NCBI GenBank assembly: GCA_046761065.1
Contig: JBHIFL010000106.1
Coordinates: forward strand, 1-12,051
DNA: 12,051 nt
Reading direction: 5' to 3'
DNA from: Candidatus Heimdallarchaeota archaeon
GTDB taxonomy: Archaea; Asgardarchaeota; Wukongarchaeia; Wukongarchaeales; JBHIFL01
The notes beneath the pieces were generated by a model that did no database searches, had not been told where the DNA came from, and saw nothing but the letters and a program-made list of their open reading frames with translations. Made by a program: the position numbers and the translations under genes. This document shows positions 1 to 5,555 of this stretch, one piece after another. Numbering within the stretch: the first letter of the stretch is position 1; every line of letters starts with the position of its first letter.

Positions 1-26
1 TATTAACCAAAGATGGTGGTGGAGAG

Positions 27-398
27 ATGCACGAGTACTCGGCAACAGTTCACTTGGTGGAAGCTGTTCTTAGAGAGGCAAGAAAGAGGAACTCAAAGAG
101 AGTTACTGAGGTTCATTTACTAATAGGCAAGCTAAGTTACTTTGGAACAGAGCAGATGCAATTCTGGTACGAAGTCTTAGGTAAGGGGACTATCTTAGAG
201 GGATCTGTGCTGCTTATAGAAGAGGAAGAGGGAGAGGTGGAGTGCGAGATTTGTGGTTATAAAGGCCCGATCCAACTGGAGAAGGCTCCCCATTACTTCA
301 TCGCTGTTCCCACTCTACGCTGTCCTATATGTGACTCCGTAGTCAAGATAGTTAGAGGGAAGGAATGTATAATAAAGAATATTAAAATGGTTGCCTGA
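27..398 (+). CDS. hypA: Hydrogenase maturation nickel metallochaperone HypA
   Basis: N-terminal Ni-binding MHE motif. Zn-binding CEIC...CPIC pair with a long archaeal-type insertion. C-terminal GKECIIKNI motif. GGTGGTGGAG RBS directly upstream. Close to hydrogenase genes. Confidence 0.96.
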   Translation: MHEYSATVHLVEAVLREARKRNSKRVTEVHLLIGKLSYFGTEQMQFWYEVLGKGTILEGSVLLIEEEEGEVECEICGYKGPIQLEKAPHYFIAVPTLRCPICDSVVKIVRGKECIIKNIKMVA

Positions 399-1303: not shown

Positions 1304-2278
1304 ATGGTATTGATGTCGAATATTCATGTTGTATGGTTACAGGGTCAAGCTTGTACAGGGTGCACAGTATCCTTCACGAATGCTACGCATCCAAGCTTTA
1401 CTGACCTCTTAACAGGCTTTATACCTCCAGCTGCAGGTGTCACTCTCGACTTCCATCAGACAATAATGACTCCTTGGGGTGAACAAGCCACTCAGATCTT
1501 GGATGCTGCTAATGAGGGAAAACTCGCTCCCTTGGTATTGGCCGTGGAAGGAGCAGTACCGGATGAGAGTATAGCGGGTAAAACTGGTGGTTTCTGGTGT
1601 CTTGCTGGCGAATCAGAAGGGAAACCGGTAACCTTTGCTGAGAGACTCAGCGATCTTTCGAAGAAGGCGGCTCTAGTAGTCGCAGTCGGAACCTGTGCAA
1701 CCTATGGGGGAATCCCCCATGGTAAACCCAACCCCACAGGAGCTAAGGGTGTTTTAGACTATTTAGGTCGAGATTGGACAAGTGCTCTTGGCTTACCAGT
1801 TGTTTGTGTCCCCGGATGCCCTGTTCATGGCGAGCATCTGGCCGAGGTGTTAGCTCACGCCGTACTAGCTGTTAGAGAAGTCATACCTCTCCCGGAGCTC
1901 GATAATGAGCATAGACCTGTTCATATCTTCGGCCACACAGCTCATGAGAATTGCCCACGGGCAGGATTATTCGCTGATGGGAAAAACTCCCATACATTCG
2001 GTGAACCCTACTGCATGGGATTGCTCGGATGTAAAGGCCCGGTTTCCCACTGTGATGTCCCACGAAGAGGTTTCATCGAAGGAGTCGGTGGGTGTCCAAC
2101 AGTGGGGTCTCCATGCATCGGTTGTACTGAGCCAAGATTTCCTGACCGTCCTTATTCTCCTTTCCTAGGAAAGCCTCCTAAATGGCCGTTTGTCTCAGAA
2201 AAGATAAAAGGTACTTGGGGATCAATCGACGCGCTCTGGAGTAGGTTTAAGGATTGGGTTTTTGGAAGAAAAATCTAA
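1304..2278 (+). CDS. [NiFe]-hydrogenase small subunit (group 1, group 1h-related), no Tat signal
   Basis: Proximal cluster motifs WLQGQACTGC, VEGAVP, AVGTCATYGG and VPGCP. Distal cluster HENCPR...C...GCKGP. Medial cluster CDVPRRGFIEGVGGCPTVGSPCIGC. The start could alternatively be the ATG at 1313. Confidence 0.96.
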   Translation: MVLMSNIHVVWLQGQACTGCTVSFTNATHPSFTDLLTGFIPPAAGVTLDFHQTIMTPWGEQATQILDAANEGKLAPLVLAVEGAVPDESIAGKTGGFWCLAGESEGKPVTFAERLSDLSKKAALVVAVGTCATYGGIPHGKPNPTGAKGVLDYLGRDWTSALGLPVVCVPGCPVHGEHLAEVLAHAVLAVREVIPLPELDNEHRPVHIFGHTAHENCPRAGLFADGKNSHTFGEPYCMGLLGCKGPVSHCDVPRRGFIEGVGGCPTVGSPCIGCTEPRFPDRPYSPFLGKPPKWPFVSEKIKGTWGSIDALWSRFKDWVFGRKI

Positions 2279-2289
2279 GGTGAATCACA

Positions 2290-4017
2290 TTGGCAAAAAA
2301 AGAGATTATTATAGAGCCACTGACAAGAATTGAAGGACACCTTGGAATCCAAGCTGAAGCGGATCTTAATACAAATAGGTATGTGGATGCACATAGTTTT
2401 GGAACCATGTTCAGAGGATGGGAGATTATTCTTCAGGGTAGAGAACCTGCTGATGCCATCTGGATTACGCAAAGGGTTTGTGGGGTCTGTCCTTACCCGC
2501 ATGCCCTTGCTTCAGCTCAAGCTGTGGATATGGCTTATAACGCCCCTCCACCGCCCATGGGAATTCTCTTAAGAGATCTCATGCACGGAGCCGAGCAGCT
2601 CTATGACTCAGTGTTGGGTTGCATCGTGCTTGAAGGTCCAGATTACAGTCAGCAAATCATAGAAAAGTCTAATCCGGCGTGGTGGGGGGAAGCTACGAAA
2701 ACAAAGGCCCCTCGAAGTGAATTCCATGGTTACCAGACTATCGCAGAGATCATGACTGCTCTGACCCCTCTCACTGGTTCTTTATGGTTGAGGTCCCTAG
2801 GACTGGAGAAACTGGGTCGAAAGATGGCCGCCCTTCTAGGCGCAAAGCACCCTCATGTGAACACCGTAATACCGGGTGGCATGGCAAAGACATTAACCGC
2901 AACAGATCTCGAGCAGTATGCGGCAATGCTCTCTCAACACATCGCTTTTGCGAAAGAATTCATTCCCATTTTCGACGACTTATGTGACTTTCTAATAGGT
3001 ATGGACTACGAAGACTCAGGTGCACGACCTATAAACCTCTTATCATACGGGGCATATGAGGATCCCTCTGCTTATACAGCAGTGTACGAGGACATGACCG
3101 ACTGGGGTCTAAAACGTCAGATTTCCCCCGGTGTTGTGATAAATGGGGAGCTGATTACCCAGGATTTGGTTGAGATCAATGTTGGGGTACACGAGTTCGT
3201 TGACCACTCATATTATACTAAATGGACTGGTAAGGAGTTGGAAGAGGATCCCTTGGGGAACCCACTTGCCACTGAGCATCTATGGAATAAGGAGACAAAG
3301 CCAGAGCCTGGACCACCTAAAAATTGGGAATCTAAGTATTCCTGGGCGTCCTCTCCTCGATGGGCGGATTGGAAAAAGAGGGTAGATGGAGGATTACATG
3401 TTCTAGAAGCTGGACCCATTGCTAGATTGTGGACCACAGCATTATCAAAAAAGATACCAGAGTCTACCGGAGAGAGTCTCCTCTTCACCCTTCCTAAGGC
3501 GACCGTAGTGGGTTATCCCATAGCAGATGAATTCACCCTCGAGTGGAAAATACCCGGGAAAGTAAACACGATCGAACGACTCAGAGCTCGAGCTTACTAC
3601 CATGCCTTCTCTGCGTATGCCACCTATAGTCAGCTCCTAAAAGCCTTGGAATTGATCAAGAAGGGAACAGCTCAGGTCTGGAACAAATATAAGAAGCCGA
3701 AACGAGGCGTGGGAGTCGGGATGGTGGAGGCAATGCGGGGCGCCCTGGCACACTGGGTCGTTATGGAGAATAAAAAGATTCGGAAGTACCAGATCATAAC
3801 ACCCTCTGGATGGAATGCAAGTCCTCGTGGTCCTAATGACGATCTCGGTCCCTATGAGGAGGCAATCGTCGGAACGCCCATCACGGAGCCATCGCCAGAT
3901 GAAGAGCTCGTCGGCATCGATATAGTTAGAGTGGTGAGGAGTTTTGACCCATGTTTAGCTTGCTGTGTACATCTATATGCTGGAGACAGAAAAATTAGAC
4001 AAATAGAAATCATTTAG
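2290..4017 (+). CDS. [NiFe]-hydrogenase large subunit (group 1, group 1h-related), TTG start
   Basis: EPLTRIEGH, FRGWE, L1 motif RVCGVC, EAMRGAL.HW and L2 motif RSFDPCLACCVH, followed by a 14-aa cleavable tail (LYAGDRKIRQIEII). AGGTGA RBS overlaps the small-subunit stop. Cys, not Sec, in L2. Confidence 0.97.
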   Translation: MAKKEIIIEPLTRIEGHLGIQAEADLNTNRYVDAHSFGTMFRGWEIILQGREPADAIWITQRVCGVCPYPHALASAQAVDMAYNAPPPPMGILLRDLMHGAEQLYDSVLGCIVLEGPDYSQQIIEKSNPAWWGEATKTKAPRSEFHGYQTIAEIMTALTPLTGSLWLRSLGLEKLGRKMAALLGAKHPHVNTVIPGGMAKTLTATDLEQYAAMLSQHIAFAKEFIPIFDDLCDFLIGMDYEDSGARPINLLSYGAYEDPSAYTAVYEDMTDWGLKRQISPGVVINGELITQDLVEINVGVHEFVDHSYYTKWTGKELEEDPLGNPLATEHLWNKETKPEPGPPKNWESKYSWASSPRWADWKKRVDGGLHVLEAGPIARLWTTALSKKIPESTGESLLFTLPKATVVGYPIADEFTLEWKIPGKVNTIERLRARAYYHAFSAYATYSQLLKALELIKKGTAQVWNKYKKPKRGVGVGMVEAMRGALAHWVVMENKKIRKYQIITPSGWNASPRGPNDDLGPYEEAIVGTPITEPSPDEELVGIDIVRVVRSFDPCLACCVHLYAGDRKIRQIEII

Positions 4018-4073: not shown

Positions 4074-4595
4074 TTACTTTTCCTCTCGATTGAGGATCTC
4101 CATAATCAATGAGACTGCCTTTTTTGTTGCGTCCTCGACCTCCCCAGAGCGTTCTAAACTCAGTTCTAAACTCTTTGGTTCACAACTTATCAGAATACTC
4201 TTGGGAGGTAGAGACCCCAGAGTCTTAGCTACCTTCAAAAGTCCTTCCATCCCAGCTTCGTGGAGACTCAGAGAGATTAGATTTGTAACACCATCTACAT
4301 TGACCTCTTCAGCTTTGATCTCTTTTTTGTATAAGGTTCCCGGCTCTCCATTGCCCTTATTTGTATCGAGGAAGATGATGAAGTCGTACTCACTTAGGTC
4401 AGAGGCGACCGTAAGGCCAGCCGTGCCGAGATCCCAGAGTTCCACGTTCTCCGGGAGTGAACAATCTGAAAGGAGATCGATGACTCGTGGGCCAAAGCCA
4501 TCATCCCCTATGAGCCTATTGCCAATCCCAGCAACCAAGATCCTGTTCGCTCGAGAGTGTCGTTCTATCTGCATTTCCATTTTCTTCCACATCAT
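4074..4595 (-). CDS. Hydrogenase maturation protease (HybD/HyaD/HycI family, peptidase A31), copy 1
   Basis: ILVAGIGNRLIGDDGFG, DLGTAG, IIFLD and SLHE motifs. The metal-ligand D...D...H triad is present. Confidence 0.94.
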   Translation of the reverse strand: MMWKKMEMQIERHSRANRILVAGIGNRLIGDDGFGPRVIDLLSDCSLPENVELWDLGTAGLTVASDLSEYDFIIFLDTNKGNGEPGTLYKKEIKAEEVNVDGVTNLISLSLHEAGMEGLLKVAKTLGSLPPKSILISCEPKSLELSLERSGEVEDATKKAVSLIMEILNREEK

Positions 4596-5447
4596 ATTCT
4601 GGTTGTATTAAACATTATAGATCATGTAATTTAGGAAAAAATAATTTCAAATAAAAAAGTTTCGTTTATACTTTTATTTTATAATATTAAAATTTATATA
4701 TAATAATAATAAAAAAAATTTTTATATAGTTCAAAAGTAAACTAATTCTTCAGAACAGTAGACCTTTCAATCTATATACATGGTTCAAAAGTATCTAAGA
4801 TAAGACACGGATAATATTGATATTAACGAATATTGGGGAATTTTTTGCTTTACTACCTGATAAAACACCTCTATATCCAGAATAAGCAGTTCTATTTATA
4901 TATTGGAGATAAGTAAATCCGACAAATAGACATTTAAGGATAGTTAAGTTTTAAATGTATAAATTTTGAAATGATGAATCTAAGAGAATGATATACTCTA
5001 CACTTCATTTTTTAATTCCTCTAAACCCTAATAGGGCATATTATTTTCCTCTCGATTGAGGATCTCCATAACCAATGAGACTGCCTTTTTTACTGCAGCC
5101 GCGACCTCTTTTGAGAGTTCAAAACCCGGTTCCAAACTTTTTGGGTCACAACCTATCAGAATAACCTTAGGAGGTAGAGTTCCCAACGCTTTTGCGATTT
5201 TAAGGAGACCTTCCAGCCCAGCCTCGTGGAGACTCAAAGAGACCAGATCTGTGACATCCTCTTCACTAACATCATCAACCGTTATCTCCCTCTTGTACAA
5301 AGTCCCTGGCTCTCCACTACCCTCAATCGCGTCGAGGAAGATGATGAAGTCGCACTCTCTTAGGTCAGAGGCGACCGTAAGGCCAGCCGTGCCGAGATCC
5401 CAGAGTTCCACGTTCTCCGGGAGTGAACAATCTGAAAGGAGATCGAT
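4393..5447. repeat. 89-bp exact direct repeat (4393-4481 = 5359-5447) inside the duplicated protease genes
   Basis: Base-by-base identity from CTTAGGTCAGAGG to GGAGATCGAT. A second tract, 4078-4125 vs 5044-5091, has one mismatch in 48 bp at the same offset. Confidence 0.92.
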
Positions 5448-5555
5448 AACTCGTGGGCCAAAGCCGTCATCCCCCCTGAGCCTACTTCCAACACCTGCTA
5501 CCAAGATTTTTTTCCCTTTAGACGAGTGTTCCAACTGAGGCATCTTCTTAACCAT
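5028..5555 (-). CDS. Hydrogenase maturation protease (HybD/HyaD/HycI family, peptidase A31), copy 2
   Basis: ILVAGVGSRLRGDDGFG, IIFLDA, GEPG, SLHE and LIGCDP motifs. Collinear paralog of 4074-4595 at a constant 966-bp offset. Confidence 0.94.
   Translation of the reverse strand: MVKKMPQLEHSSKGKKILVAGVGSRLRGDDGFGPRVIDLLSDCSLPENVELWDLGTAGLTVASDLRECDFIIFLDAIEGSGEPGTLYKREITVDDVSEEDVTDLVSLSLHEAGLEGLLKIAKALGTLPPKVILIGCDPKSLEPGFELSKEVAAAVKKAVSLVMEILNREENNMPY

What the first reader, a model, noticed from the sequence alone, without database searches (positions are those of the whole stretch)
1304..4017. Hydrogenase with a group 1h-like scaffold but canonical catalytic and Fe-S residues: candidate distinct subgroup
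Seen, compared from memory with Hhy/Hof (group 1h) sequences. 1h-like segments: DPLGNP...H.WN..T.P.P, KYSW..SPRW.D, GPIARLWTTAL, EWKIP...N.IER.RAR.Y, EAMRG (no Pro), WNASPR, and in the small subunit C.VP.RG...GVGGCP.VG..CIGC. The 1h hallmarks TRIVGS, RICGICGDNH, CLPCGVH and the Asp-ligated proximal CDGD are instead TRIEGH (proton-gate Glu kept), RVCGVCPYPH, CLACCVH and CTGC. Inference: an archaeal sister or basal lineage of the high-affinity, O2-tolerant atmospheric-H2 hydrogenases, probably with three conventional [4Fe-4S] clusters.
Basis: partly seen in the sequence, partly recalled or inferred. Interest (0 to 1): 0.72.

Follow-up and report, generated by a model that had tools for sequence, protein, structure and literature searches.

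The report
Cytoplasmic archaeal [NiFe]-hydrogenase, 1g/1h-basal clade
This is an intact two-subunit nickel-iron hydrogenase that stays inside the cell; it belongs to an uncharacterised archaeal branch already visible in published trees beside the air-hydrogen-scavenging enzymes, and this Asgard archaeon probably acquired it from Bathyarchaeia.

Summary
Positions 1304-4017 encode a [NiFe]-hydrogenase small subunit (324 aa, no Tat signal) and large subunit (575 aa), and every quoted motif is present.

The "distinct lineage" reading holds. In large- and small-subunit trees the enzyme sits in a 100/100-supported clade outside groups 1h and 1g. That clade is mainly Bathyarchaeia, Altiarchaeota and Korarchaeia. 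With a Njordarchaeota-type sister clade, it branches beside (1g,(1h, unlabelled relatives)). An exclusive sister relationship with 1h is rejected (AU p = 0.016).

The lineage is not new. A 70%-identical member is in the Fig. 3 tree of Leung et al. 2024, whose text mentions undescribed archaeal group 1 clades. Other papers labelled relatives 1h or 1g using HydDB.

Nothing supports high affinity or O2 tolerance. No terminal oxidase was found in the genome, but acetyl-CoA synthase was. The 1h accessory genes are missing.

The enzyme is rare in Asgard archaea (2 of 400 species genomes), which suggests lateral transfer. The electron partner is unknown. In several Bathyarchaeia relatives the genes lie next to quinone-linked membrane modules.

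This scan had already noted similar Tat-less, partner-less hydrogenases in other genomes.

The parts
3..398 (+). hypA (nickel metallochaperone for hydrogenase maturation), 5' end cut by the contig end
   Evidence: Pfam HypA E 4.5e-25; NCBIfam TIGR00100 above its cut-off. hypA/hypB also precede the structural genes in relatives L047, L062 and L001.
1304..2278 (+). [NiFe]-hydrogenase small subunit, 324 aa, no Tat signal. Ligands for three [4Fe-4S] clusters. Conserved C-terminal tail, amphipathic by eye, with no TM anchor seen in the alignment.
   Evidence: The first Cys motif, CTGC, is at residues 17-20, and an in-frame stop lies 5 codons upstream of the ATG. Other ligand motifs: GTCA, PGCP, HENC, C..GCKGP, SHC, GGCP, PCIGC.
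2290..4017 (+). [NiFe]-hydrogenase large subunit, 575 aa, TTG start. L1 is RVCGVCPYPH and L2 is DPCLACCVH, followed by a 14-residue C-terminal extension of the kind removed at maturation.
   Evidence: A GGTGA ribosome-binding site precedes the TTG.
4074..4595 (-). HycI/HyaD-type hydrogenase maturation endopeptidase, convergent with the large subunit gene
   Evidence: Pfam HycI and TIGR00072. A protease lies directly downstream of the large-subunit gene in L001, L047, L048 and L061-L064 too (same strand in L063); 71-76% identical to the L001 and L047 proteases.
5028..5555 (-). Second copy of the same maturation endopeptidase (tandem paralogue)
   Evidence: 73% identical to the first copy and 75-79% identical to the L001 and L047 proteases.

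Best explanation
The locus encodes a complete, probably functional, cytoplasmic heterodimeric [NiFe]-hydrogenase with its own maturation protease (duplicated here) and hypA. It belongs to an uncharacterised, mostly archaeal clade (Bathyarchaeia, Altiarchaeota, Korarchaeia, a few Asgard). Together with an Isp-type sister clade, this clade branches beside groups 1g, 1h and unlabelled 1h relatives. Shown by sequence: a standard active site (four Ni/Fe cysteines, the Glu of RIEGH) and a relay of three [4Fe-4S] clusters ending in a His-ligated distal cluster. There is no export signal, no membrane anchor and no partner gene in the cassette. Inferred: the enzyme is an ordinary O2-sensitive type that oxidises H2 in the cytoplasm. 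It probably passes electrons from the distal cluster to an acceptor encoded elsewhere, most likely one of moderate potential. In Bathyarchaeia relatives the neighbouring genes point to quinone-linked membrane modules (NarI/HdrD-like or an 11-subunit Nuo-like complex). In this anaerobic Asgard archaeon, which carries the Wood-Ljungdahl pathway, it would add reducing power from H2. The Asgard copy was probably acquired laterally from Bathyarchaeia.
For: Identity and integrity.
Clade signature: L1 is R-x-CGVCP-x-PH in 115 of 117 full-length relatives, and [TS]R[IL]EGH was found in 115 of 117.
Tat-less start: seen in 13 of 13 clade small subunits.
Trees: the clade is supported 100/100. With the Njord/P0123 sister clade support is 95/85. 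The neighbouring assemblage (1g,(1h, relatives)) has 96/94 and the supergroup 100/99. The small-subunit tree agrees that the clade lies outside 1h and 1g.
Reference labels: checked against the published tree file. WP_011153987.1 and WP_016920676.1 are labelled 1h and WP_011822511.1 is labelled 1g.
Published placement: locus L002 (70% identical) is leaf QMXQ01000078.1_7 in the Leung et al. tree, grouped with Altarchaeota and Korarchaeales and next to ANME-1/Syntropharchaeum.
Anaerobic host: no COX1 or cytochrome bd was found while the control genomes matched; CdhC is present.
The contig belongs to the Asgard genome: its other genes have many paralogues on other contigs of the genome, and the best foreign hits of the 905-aa protein are in same-order genomes.
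Lateral origin: only 2 of 400 Asgard species genomes carry the enzyme. The Asgard sequences nest among Bathyarchaeia with 100/98 support.
Context hints: a NarI-like + HdrD-like + UbiA operon lies divergent to the small subunit gene in L006, L037 and L008, with an HdrD-like gene and only a NarI-like fragment in L007. A Nuo-like operon lies beside the genes in L048, L061, L004 and L007. UbiA, UbiE or polyprenyl synthase genes lie nearby in L047, L061, L048 and L002.
Against: No activity, direction or partner has been shown for any member of the clade. The window itself, the Sifarchaeum locus and several others carry only hyp genes and the protease. The quinone link therefore rests on a subset of loci, several of them closely related. 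A cytoplasmic H2:quinone reaction gains nothing from a redox loop, and no terminal acceptor for quinol is known here. The genome is a 91%-complete bin with 8% contamination, so missing oxidases or accessory genes could be unassembled. I had no named sequences for groups 1a, 1b, 1e, 1f and 1i-1l, so placement against those rests on unlabelled 50%-identity representatives and on the published tree.
Confidence: 0.6

Rival explanations
1. It is a true group 1h (Hhy-type) high-affinity, O2-tolerant hydrogenase, or its direct archaeal sister, used to scavenge trace H2.
For: 5AA5 is by far the best solved match. Shared insertions and a similar small-subunit tail are visible. HydDB-based papers labelled clade members from Korarchaeia QMVU01 as 1h. 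The best HydDB BLAST hits of clade members are 1h or 1l at about 41-42% identity.
Against: The clade lies outside the 100/100-supported 1h group in both subunit trees. Forcing clade and 1h together is rejected (AU p = 0.016). TRIVGS, RICGICGDNH, CLPCGVH and the Asp of CDGD are all replaced. The NifU-like/DUF5947/DUF6084 genes that follow every 1h structural pair examined are absent from the locus and were not found in the genome. No terminal oxidase was found.
Confidence: 0.05
2. It is a group 1g (Crenarchaeota Isp-type) membrane-bound uptake hydrogenase, the label HydDB gave the related ANME-1c enzyme.
For: The ANME-1c paper reports a HydDB call of 1g for a neighbouring lineage. TRIEGH and a canonical L2 motif are shared with 1g. 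The sister clade (P0123, Njordarchaeota) does carry isp1/isp2 genes.
Against: There is no Tat signal, with a stop 5 codons upstream of the start. [quoted passage not shown] The clade is separated from the 1g references in both trees.
Confidence: 0.04
3. It works mainly in the H2-evolving or bidirectional direction, as a cytoplasmic redox valve. It would dispose of electrons from ferredoxin or a low-potential quinol during fermentative or syntrophic growth.
For: Asgard and Bathyarchaeia metabolism is usually modelled as fermentative or syntrophic with H2 release. There is no export, no cytochrome b and no anchor. [NiFe] enzymes are reversible in principle (general knowledge).
Against: All characterised relatives in the surrounding supergroup (1g, 1h) are uptake enzymes. 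The genome already has group 3- and group 4-like enzymes, which are the usual H2 producers. No ferredoxin gene accompanies the cassette.
Confidence: 0.22
4. It is an H2 sensor, like the group 2b/2c regulatory hydrogenases: cytoplasmic, two subunits and no redox partner.
For: It is Tat-less and partner-less, and a 905-aa protein with HTH domains lies 2.6 kb downstream.
Against: The large subunit keeps a C-terminal extension and has dedicated proteases. From my own knowledge, not a tool result, regulatory hydrogenases lack both. It is far from HoxC (2b) in the tree. No kinase, PAS or regulator gene recurred in the relatives' loci whose genes I listed. The 905-aa protein belongs to a large paralogue family scattered over the genome.
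Confidence: 0.04

Closest known systems
Unnamed archaeal group 1 [NiFe]-hydrogenase lineage in Fig. 3 of Leung et al. 2024 (Nat Commun, PMC11018855): Altarchaeota, Bathyarchaeia order TCS64, Korarchaeales QMVU01
   Same: Same clade. Leaf QMXQ01000078.1_7 is my locus L002, 70% identical to this large subunit and inside the 100/100 clade. Altiarchaeales IMC4 proteins are members too. The CGVCPxPH L1 motif is visible in their supplementary sequences.
   Different: That paper only mentions 'previously undescribed clades' and does not name or characterise them. No Asgardarchaeota entry was found in the part of its table that is held as text. The present copy is from an Asgard genome.
ANME-1c / Ca. 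Syntrophoarchaeum / Ca. Alkanophagales [NiFe]-hydrogenase (Benito Merino et al. 2022, PMC9539880)
   Same: Reported 'at the base of groups 1g and 1h'. It is the next branch outward from this clade in the Leung tree file. Function unknown.
   Different: It is a separate branch with a long stem of 0.44. That paper calls it membrane-bound and gives a HydDB call of 1g. I did not have these sequences in my own tree.
Group 1h (formerly group 5) Hhy / actinobacterial-type hydrogenase, Cupriavidus necator HofKG, PDB 5AA5
   Same: Best structural template, 39% identical over the full length. No Tat signal, a four-Cys medial cluster, shared insertions and a similar small-subunit C-terminal tail.
   Different: The Glu of RIEGH is kept here, where 1h has Val. 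L1 and L2 differ. The proximal cluster has Cys instead of Asp. The NifU-like/DUF5947/DUF6084 accessory genes are missing and the host is anaerobic. The clade is outside 1h in the trees.
Isp-type hydrogenases: group 1g (Hyperthermus, Pyrodictium) and the Njordarchaeota/P0123 sister clade
   Same: TRIEGH and a canonical L2 motif. The sister clade also shares the CGVCPVPH L1 motif. Some Bathyarchaeia clade members have a NarI-like + HdrD-like gene pair (the Isp1/Isp2 type) next to the structural genes.
   Different: Group 1g has a Tat signal and isp1-isp2 between the subunit genes. The sister clade has SSU-LSU-isp1-isp2, with tatA nearby in L066, and CSGD at the proximal cluster in L009 and L010. 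The window enzyme has none of these.
'Group 1h' hydrogenase reported in Wood-Ljungdahl-encoding Korarchaeia Kg_8 (genus QMVU01) (PMC10667645)
   Same: The QMVU01 leaves group with this clade in the Leung tree file. The context is also an anaerobe carrying the Wood-Ljungdahl pathway, with a proposed role in H2-dependent acetogenesis.
   Different: It was labelled 1h by the HydDB tool, and an F420 link was proposed from a weak domain hit. I found no F420 module in the loci I examined.

Membership tests
[NiFe]-hydrogenase, group 1/2-type heterodimer | Large subunit with N-terminal RxCGxCxxxH and C-terminal DPCxxCxxH Ni/Fe-binding motifs | tested here: met
   RVCGVCPYPH and DPCLACCVH are present. 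Pfam NiFeSe_Hases E 1e-78.
[NiFe]-hydrogenase, group 1/2-type heterodimer | Small subunit with ligands for proximal, medial and distal Fe-S clusters | tested here: met
   The alignment with HofK, HoxK, HyaA and HybO shows all ligand positions filled.
[NiFe]-hydrogenase, group 1/2-type heterodimer | C-terminal extension on the large subunit and a cognate maturation endopeptidase | tested here: met
   Fourteen residues follow the His of L2. Two HycI/HyaD-type proteases lie downstream.
Group 1h (Hhy, high-affinity) | Placement inside the 1h clade | tested here: not met
   The enzyme is outside the 100/100-supported 1h group in the large-subunit and small-subunit trees. AU test p = 0.016 against clade + 1h.
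Group 1h (Hhy, high-affinity) | 1h motifs: TRIVGS, RICGICGDNH, CLPCGVH | tested here: not met
   The window has TRIEGH, RVCGVCPYPH and CLACCVH. The 1h motifs were confirmed in five 1h sequences (one has TRIIGN).
Group 1h (Hhy, high-affinity) | Asp in place of the second Cys of the proximal-cluster motif (CDGD) | tested here: not met
   The window and all 13 clade small subunits have C-T-G-C.
Group 1h (Hhy, high-affinity) | Conserved accessory genes after the structural genes (NifU-like HhyE, DUF5947, DUF6084) | tested here: not met
   DUF5947 and DUF6084 follow the structural genes in all four 1h loci examined, and a NifU-family protein is annotated in two of them. They are absent from the window. 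They were not found in the genome by protein or family search. The family searches matched none of the control genomes either, so genome-wide absence is weakly shown.
Group 1h (Hhy, high-affinity) | No Tat signal on the small subunit | tested here: met
Group 1h (Hhy, high-affinity) | Nanomolar-range H2 affinity and O2-insensitive turnover, coupled to aerobic respiration | not testable with these tools
   Indirect evidence only: no COX1 or cytochrome bd was found in the 91%-complete genome.
Group 1g (Crenarchaeota Isp-type) | Tat-exported small subunit | tested here: not met
   A stop lies 5 codons upstream of the start and there is no RRxF motif. The Hyperthermus small subunit has one.
Group 1g (Crenarchaeota Isp-type) | [quoted passage not shown] | tested here: not met
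   There is an 11-nt gap between the subunit genes here. Hyperthermus has SSU-isp1-isp2-LSU. The feature is defined in PMC11018855.
Group 1g (Crenarchaeota Isp-type) | Placement inside the 1g clade | tested here: not met
   Only two to four 1g sequences were available.
Unnamed archaeal clade (Altiarchaeota / Bathyarchaeia TCS64 / Korarchaeales QMVU01; Leung et al. 2024 tree) | Monophyly with published members | tested here: met
   The clade is supported 100/100 and includes L002 (a leaf in the published tree) and Altiarchaeales IMC4 proteins.
Unnamed archaeal clade (Altiarchaeota / Bathyarchaeia TCS64 / Korarchaeales QMVU01; Leung et al. 2024 tree) | Signature found here: L1 is CGVCPxPH, RIEGH is retained, the proximal motif is CTGC, the small subunit is Tat-less | tested here: met
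   115 of 117 large subunits and 13 of 13 small subunits fit the signature. This signature is my own description, not a published definition.
Group 2b/2c regulatory (sensor) hydrogenase | Large subunit without a C-terminal extension, no maturation protease, and an associated kinase or regulator | tested here: not met
   The extension and two proteases are present, and the enzyme is far from HoxC in the trees. The defining feature itself comes from my own knowledge.

The most novel reading that the evidence does not exclude
The clade is an 'inside-facing' descendant of Isp-type uptake hydrogenases. It lost export and now feeds H2 electrons from the cytoplasmic side into a quinone-linked membrane module (NarI/HdrD-like or an 11-subunit Nuo-like complex). 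Its lateral arrival in this genome would give an Asgard archaeon that carries the Wood-Ljungdahl pathway a real H2-uptake route. Published surveys found group 1 hydrogenases only in Wukongarchaeota and reported none in Sifarchaeia.
Probability: 0.2. Interest if true: 0.65.

Novelty: new member of a known kind. Interest (0 to 1): 0.4.

Why it matters
The HydDB web classifier has put members of this clade and of the neighbouring ANME-1 lineage into 1h or 1g. Papers have then borrowed the physiology of aerobic trace-gas scavengers or sulfur-respiring Crenarchaeota for strict anaerobes. Showing that the clade lacks the defining features of both groups argues for giving it its own subgroup and for biochemical study. 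Its acceptor, direction and O2 response are all unknown.

For Asgard biology the interest is narrower but real. Group 1-type hydrogenases are nearly absent from the phylum: 4 of 400 species genomes here, counting the sister clade. The literature reports them only in Wukongarchaeota, and one study states that Sifarchaeia lack them. A laterally acquired cytoplasmic uptake-type enzyme in a Wood-Ljungdahl-positive Asgard bears on models of hydrogen-based syntrophy. As a discovery it is modest, because the lineage is already in published trees and this is one more member.

Tried and rejected
1. Complex prediction with the L006 HdrD-like protein and the small subunit returned no verdict. It is not evidence either way.

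2. Searches for the 1h accessory genes in the genome, by protein and by Pfam family, found nothing. The family searches matched none of the control genomes either, so this is weak.

3. The own-genome NarI-HdrD fusion on contig C27 was looked at as a candidate partner. It sits next to an acyl-CoA dehydrogenase, so it more likely serves beta-oxidation/Etf electron transfer. It was not pursued.

4. The extra Cys in DPCLACC was considered as a defining catalytic feature and rejected. That position is C, S, T, A, D or G across the clade.

5. The 78-aa ORF at 547-783 has no family hit and no called counterpart in the relatives' loci. It was not counted as part of the system.

6. Cluster look-ups gave names only for the 1g representatives. 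The 1h-neighbour representatives (P0124, P0126, P0127, P0132, P0137, P0140) stay unlabelled. They may include 1l, but I could not show it.

7. I did not read the whole published Newick file. Its beginning and end, together with a term search, were enough to place the clade.

8. No structure prediction was run. The sequence match to 5AA5 already fixes the fold.
Full report
**What is in the window**

The window is the whole of contig C106 of a 4.4-Mb bin that is 91% complete and 8% contaminated. On the plus strand it carries a 5'-truncated hypA (3-398), an unassigned 78-aa ORF, the hydrogenase small subunit (1304-2278, 324 aa) and, 11 nt later, the large subunit (2290-4017, 575 aa, TTG start). 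Two HycI/HyaD-type maturation proteases lie on the minus strand (4074-4595 and 5028-5555). Next come a 905-aa protein with C-terminal HTH domains and a 795-aa Kelch-repeat protein.

The two proteases are 73% identical tandem paralogues. Both are orthologous to the single protease that lies directly downstream of the large subunit gene in relatives.

**The observation**

The recalled 1h motifs are also right. In HMMER alignments to PDB 5AA5, the group 1h enzyme of Cupriavidus necator, the 1h protein has TRIVGS, RICGICGDNH, CLPCGVH and small-subunit CDGD. The window has TRIEGH, RVCGVCPYPH, CLACCVH and CTGC at the same positions.

5AA5 is by far the closest solved structure. It scores 430 bits against the large subunit, with 187 bits for the next hit, and 233 versus 183 bits for the small subunit. 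The '1h-like scaffold with canonical residues' is therefore a correct description.

**Cluster ligands and location**

I aligned the small subunit with 13 clade relatives and with HofK (1h), HoxK and HyaA (1d), HybO (1c) and HoxB (2b). The ligand pattern is:
- Proximal cluster: four Cys (CTGC, GTCA, PGCP).
- Medial cluster: four Cys (SHC, GGCP, PCIGC). This is a [4Fe-4S] pattern as in 1h and [NiFeSe] enzymes, not the [3Fe-4S] pattern of 1c/1d.
- Distal cluster: His plus three Cys.

All clade small subunits start 8-16 residues before the first Cys. In the window an in-frame stop lies 5 codons upstream of the ATG, so a Tat signal is excluded. No C-terminal membrane anchor is apparent. The subunit ends in a conserved tail, amphipathic by eye, that aligns with the HofK tail.

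**Relatives**

The large subunit has more than 120 cluster representatives at 57-85% identity. Those with names are labelled Bathyarchaeota, Hodarchaeota (87%, partial), Korarchaeota, Altiarchaeales, Nitrososphaerales and Planctomycetota. The closest species-genome hit is Ca. Sifarchaeum subterraneum at 81%.

Across 117 full-length large subunits (the window's plus 116 relatives):
- The L1 motif is R-x-CGVCP-x-PH in 115.
- The N-terminal motif [TS]R[IL]EGH was found in 115.
- About 70 have DPCLACC.
- Fifty-five replace the His after L2 with Gln. The window keeps His.

**Phylogeny**

I built large-subunit trees from three sources:
- Clade members.
- The best 50%-identity representatives from a search of 1.8 billion proteins.
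- Named references taken from annotated records: HofG, Methylocystis, Kitasatospora and Mycobacterium for 1h; Hyperthermus and Pyrodictium for 1g; HoxG and HyaB for 1d; HybC for 1c; HoxC for 2b; HoxH for 3d.

Three of these references carry the same accessions and group labels in the published tree file of Leung et al. 2024.

In the careful 51-row tree (LG+C20+F+G4), supports are ultrafast bootstrap / SH-aLRT:
- The clade: 100/100.
- The clade joined to a sister clade (P0123, Njordarchaeota, 'Promethearchaeati'): 95/85.
- The neighbouring assemblage (1g,(1h, six unlabelled relatives)): 96/94.
- The whole supergroup: 100/99.

The 85-row quick tree gives the same picture. Forcing the clade and 1h to be exclusive sisters costs 42.2 log-likelihood units and is rejected (AU p = 0.016). 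A small-subunit tree also keeps the clade outside 1h (100/100) and apart from 1g, although the order of the deep branches differs and is weakly supported.

A motif table shows that the clade keeps the Glu of RIEGH, as do 1g, 1c and 1d. Group 1h and its neighbours have lost it.

**What the literature already has**

Leung et al. 2024 (PMC11018855) built a tree of all archaeal group 1/2 enzymes in GTDB r202 together with the HydDB references. [quoted passage not shown]

Their Newick file begins and ends with exactly this clade: Altarchaeum, IMC4, Bathyarchaeia order TCS64 and Korarchaeales QMVU01. One leaf, QMXQ01000078.1_7, is my locus L002. ANME-1 and Syntropharchaeum form the next branch. Groups 1l, 1h, 1g and the Sulfolobales clades fill the final parts of the file, next to where this lineage closes.

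Benito Merino et al. 2022 place the ANME-1c/Syntrophoarchaeum enzymes 'at the base of groups 1g and 1h' and report a HydDB call of 1g. A Korarchaeia study reports a '1h' enzyme in the Wood-Ljungdahl-encoding genus QMVU01 and proposes acetogenic H2 use.

So the lineage has been seen, is unnamed, and has been filed under 1h or 1g. An earlier follow-up in this scan reached the same view for a Syntrophoarchaeum enzyme, and several first-stage notes describe similar Tat-less, partner-less hydrogenases in other genomes.

**Membership tests**

Group 1h fails on phylogeny, on the three large-subunit motifs and on the Asp ligand. It also fails on accessory genes:
- DUF5947 and DUF6084 follow the structural genes in all four 1h loci I fetched, and a NifU-family protein is annotated in two of them.
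- These genes are not in the window.
- They were not found in the genome. This is a weak negative, because the control genomes did not match either.

Group 1g fails on export and gene order. Hyperthermus has a Tat-bearing small subunit and SSU-isp1-isp2-LSU.

The sensor type (2b) is excluded by the C-terminal extension, the proteases and the tree.

**Host and origin**

G010 in the genome search matches at the same contig coordinates as the Sifarchaeum locus L001 and is listed as 'same phylum' as the window's genome. The genome is therefore in the Asgard phylum. Earlier notes of this scan call it Heimdall/Hod-type; I did not test that.

The contig is not a mis-binned fragment. Its 905-aa and Kelch proteins have many 50-84% identical paralogues on other contigs of the same genome, and the best foreign hits of the 905-aa protein are in the two same-order genomes.

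Only 2 of 400 Asgard species genomes carry the clade enzyme: this one and Sifarchaeum. Two more carry the Njord-type sister, and the two same-order genomes lack it. In the tree the Asgard sequences sit among Bathyarchaeia with 100/98 support. Lateral acquisition from Bathyarchaeia is the simplest reading.

For comparison, published surveys found group 1 enzymes in Asgard only in Wukongarchaeota (1k type) and reported that Sifarchaeia lack them.

The genome gave no hit for heme-copper oxidase or cytochrome bd, while the control genomes matched. It does encode CdhC, the acetyl-CoA synthase subunit. It also has a group 3-like and a group 4/Nuo-like large subunit.

**How it probably works**

Shown: an intact catalytic pair with standard Ni/Fe ligands and the conserved Glu, a three-cluster relay, cytoplasmic location and dedicated maturation genes.

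Inferred: a standard, O2-sensitive-type enzyme that oxidises H2 in the cytoplasm and delivers electrons to a partner encoded elsewhere.

The conserved cassette in 17 loci is only SSU-LSU-protease, with or without hyp genes. Several Bathyarchaeia members do have suggestive neighbours:
- L006, L037 and L008 have a divergent NarI-like (Pfam Nitrate_red_gam) + HdrD-like (CCG) + UbiA operon. L007 has an HdrD-like gene and only a NarI-like fragment. This is the Isp1/Isp2 or DsrMK type of module.
- L048, L061, L004 and L007 have an 11-subunit Nuo-like operon beside the genes.
- UbiA, UbiE or polyprenyl synthase genes recur nearby.

The sister clade is a true Isp-type enzyme with SSU-LSU-isp1-isp2. 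This suggests a quinone-linked acceptor reached from the cytoplasmic side. The evidence is a subset of loci, some closely related, and none of these genes is on the window's contig.

The direction of catalysis is open. My estimates are about 55% for uptake, 25-30% for evolution or bidirectional use, and the rest for other roles.

**Verdict**

The suggested kinship with high-affinity, O2-tolerant enzymes is not supported beyond shared ancestry of the fold. This is a new member, from an unusual host, of a known but uncharacterised kind.

Noticed in passing
Relatives P0011-P0027 and others; in the window the corresponding His is the last residue of CLACCVH, about 3970-3972: In 55 of the 117 full-length large subunits examined, the His that ends the L2 motif (DPCxxCxxH) is Gln (DPCLACC[IV]Q). 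From my own knowledge, this His is the site where the maturation protease normally cuts. A cognate protease gene is still present in the loci examined. The window keeps His.
   Followed up: partly
L009 and L010 small subunits (Njordarchaeota, Promethearchaeati): The sister clade's small subunits have C-S-G-D at the proximal-cluster motif. This is the same Cys-to-Asp replacement as group 1h (CDGD), yet their large subunits keep TRIEGH. They are encoded with isp1/isp2 genes.
   Followed up: partly
P0126, P0137, P0140: Three 590-616-aa representatives that group beside 1h lack most or all of the L1 cysteines, and their sequences end before the L2 cysteines. They look like hydrogenase large-subunit homologues without a Ni-Fe site.
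   Followed up: no
L047:7380-9722: The closest full-length relative (85% identical large subunit, Logan contig) has hypB-hypA directly followed by the large subunit. No small-subunit gene lies anywhere in the 11.9-kb locus fetched (8 kb upstream, about 2 kb downstream).
   Followed up: partly
window:6625-9342 and window:9584-11971: A 905-aa protein with fn3-like repeats and two C-terminal HTH domains, and a 795-aa Kelch-repeat protein. They share repeat modules with each other. They belong to large paralogue families (15-31 matches in this genome, up to 84% identical) that are also expanded in some other Asgard genomes.
   Followed up: partly
G000:C27:11723-13738 (L068:1135-3150): A 671-aa fusion of a NarI-like membrane domain with an HdrD-like (Fer4 + CCG) domain, next to an acyl-CoA dehydrogenase gene. 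It resembles the Etf-linked Fe-S oxidoreductases of syntrophic fatty-acid oxidisers.
   Followed up: partly
window:4074-5555: The hydrogenase maturation protease is duplicated in tandem (73% identity). The relatives examined have one copy.
   Followed up: yes
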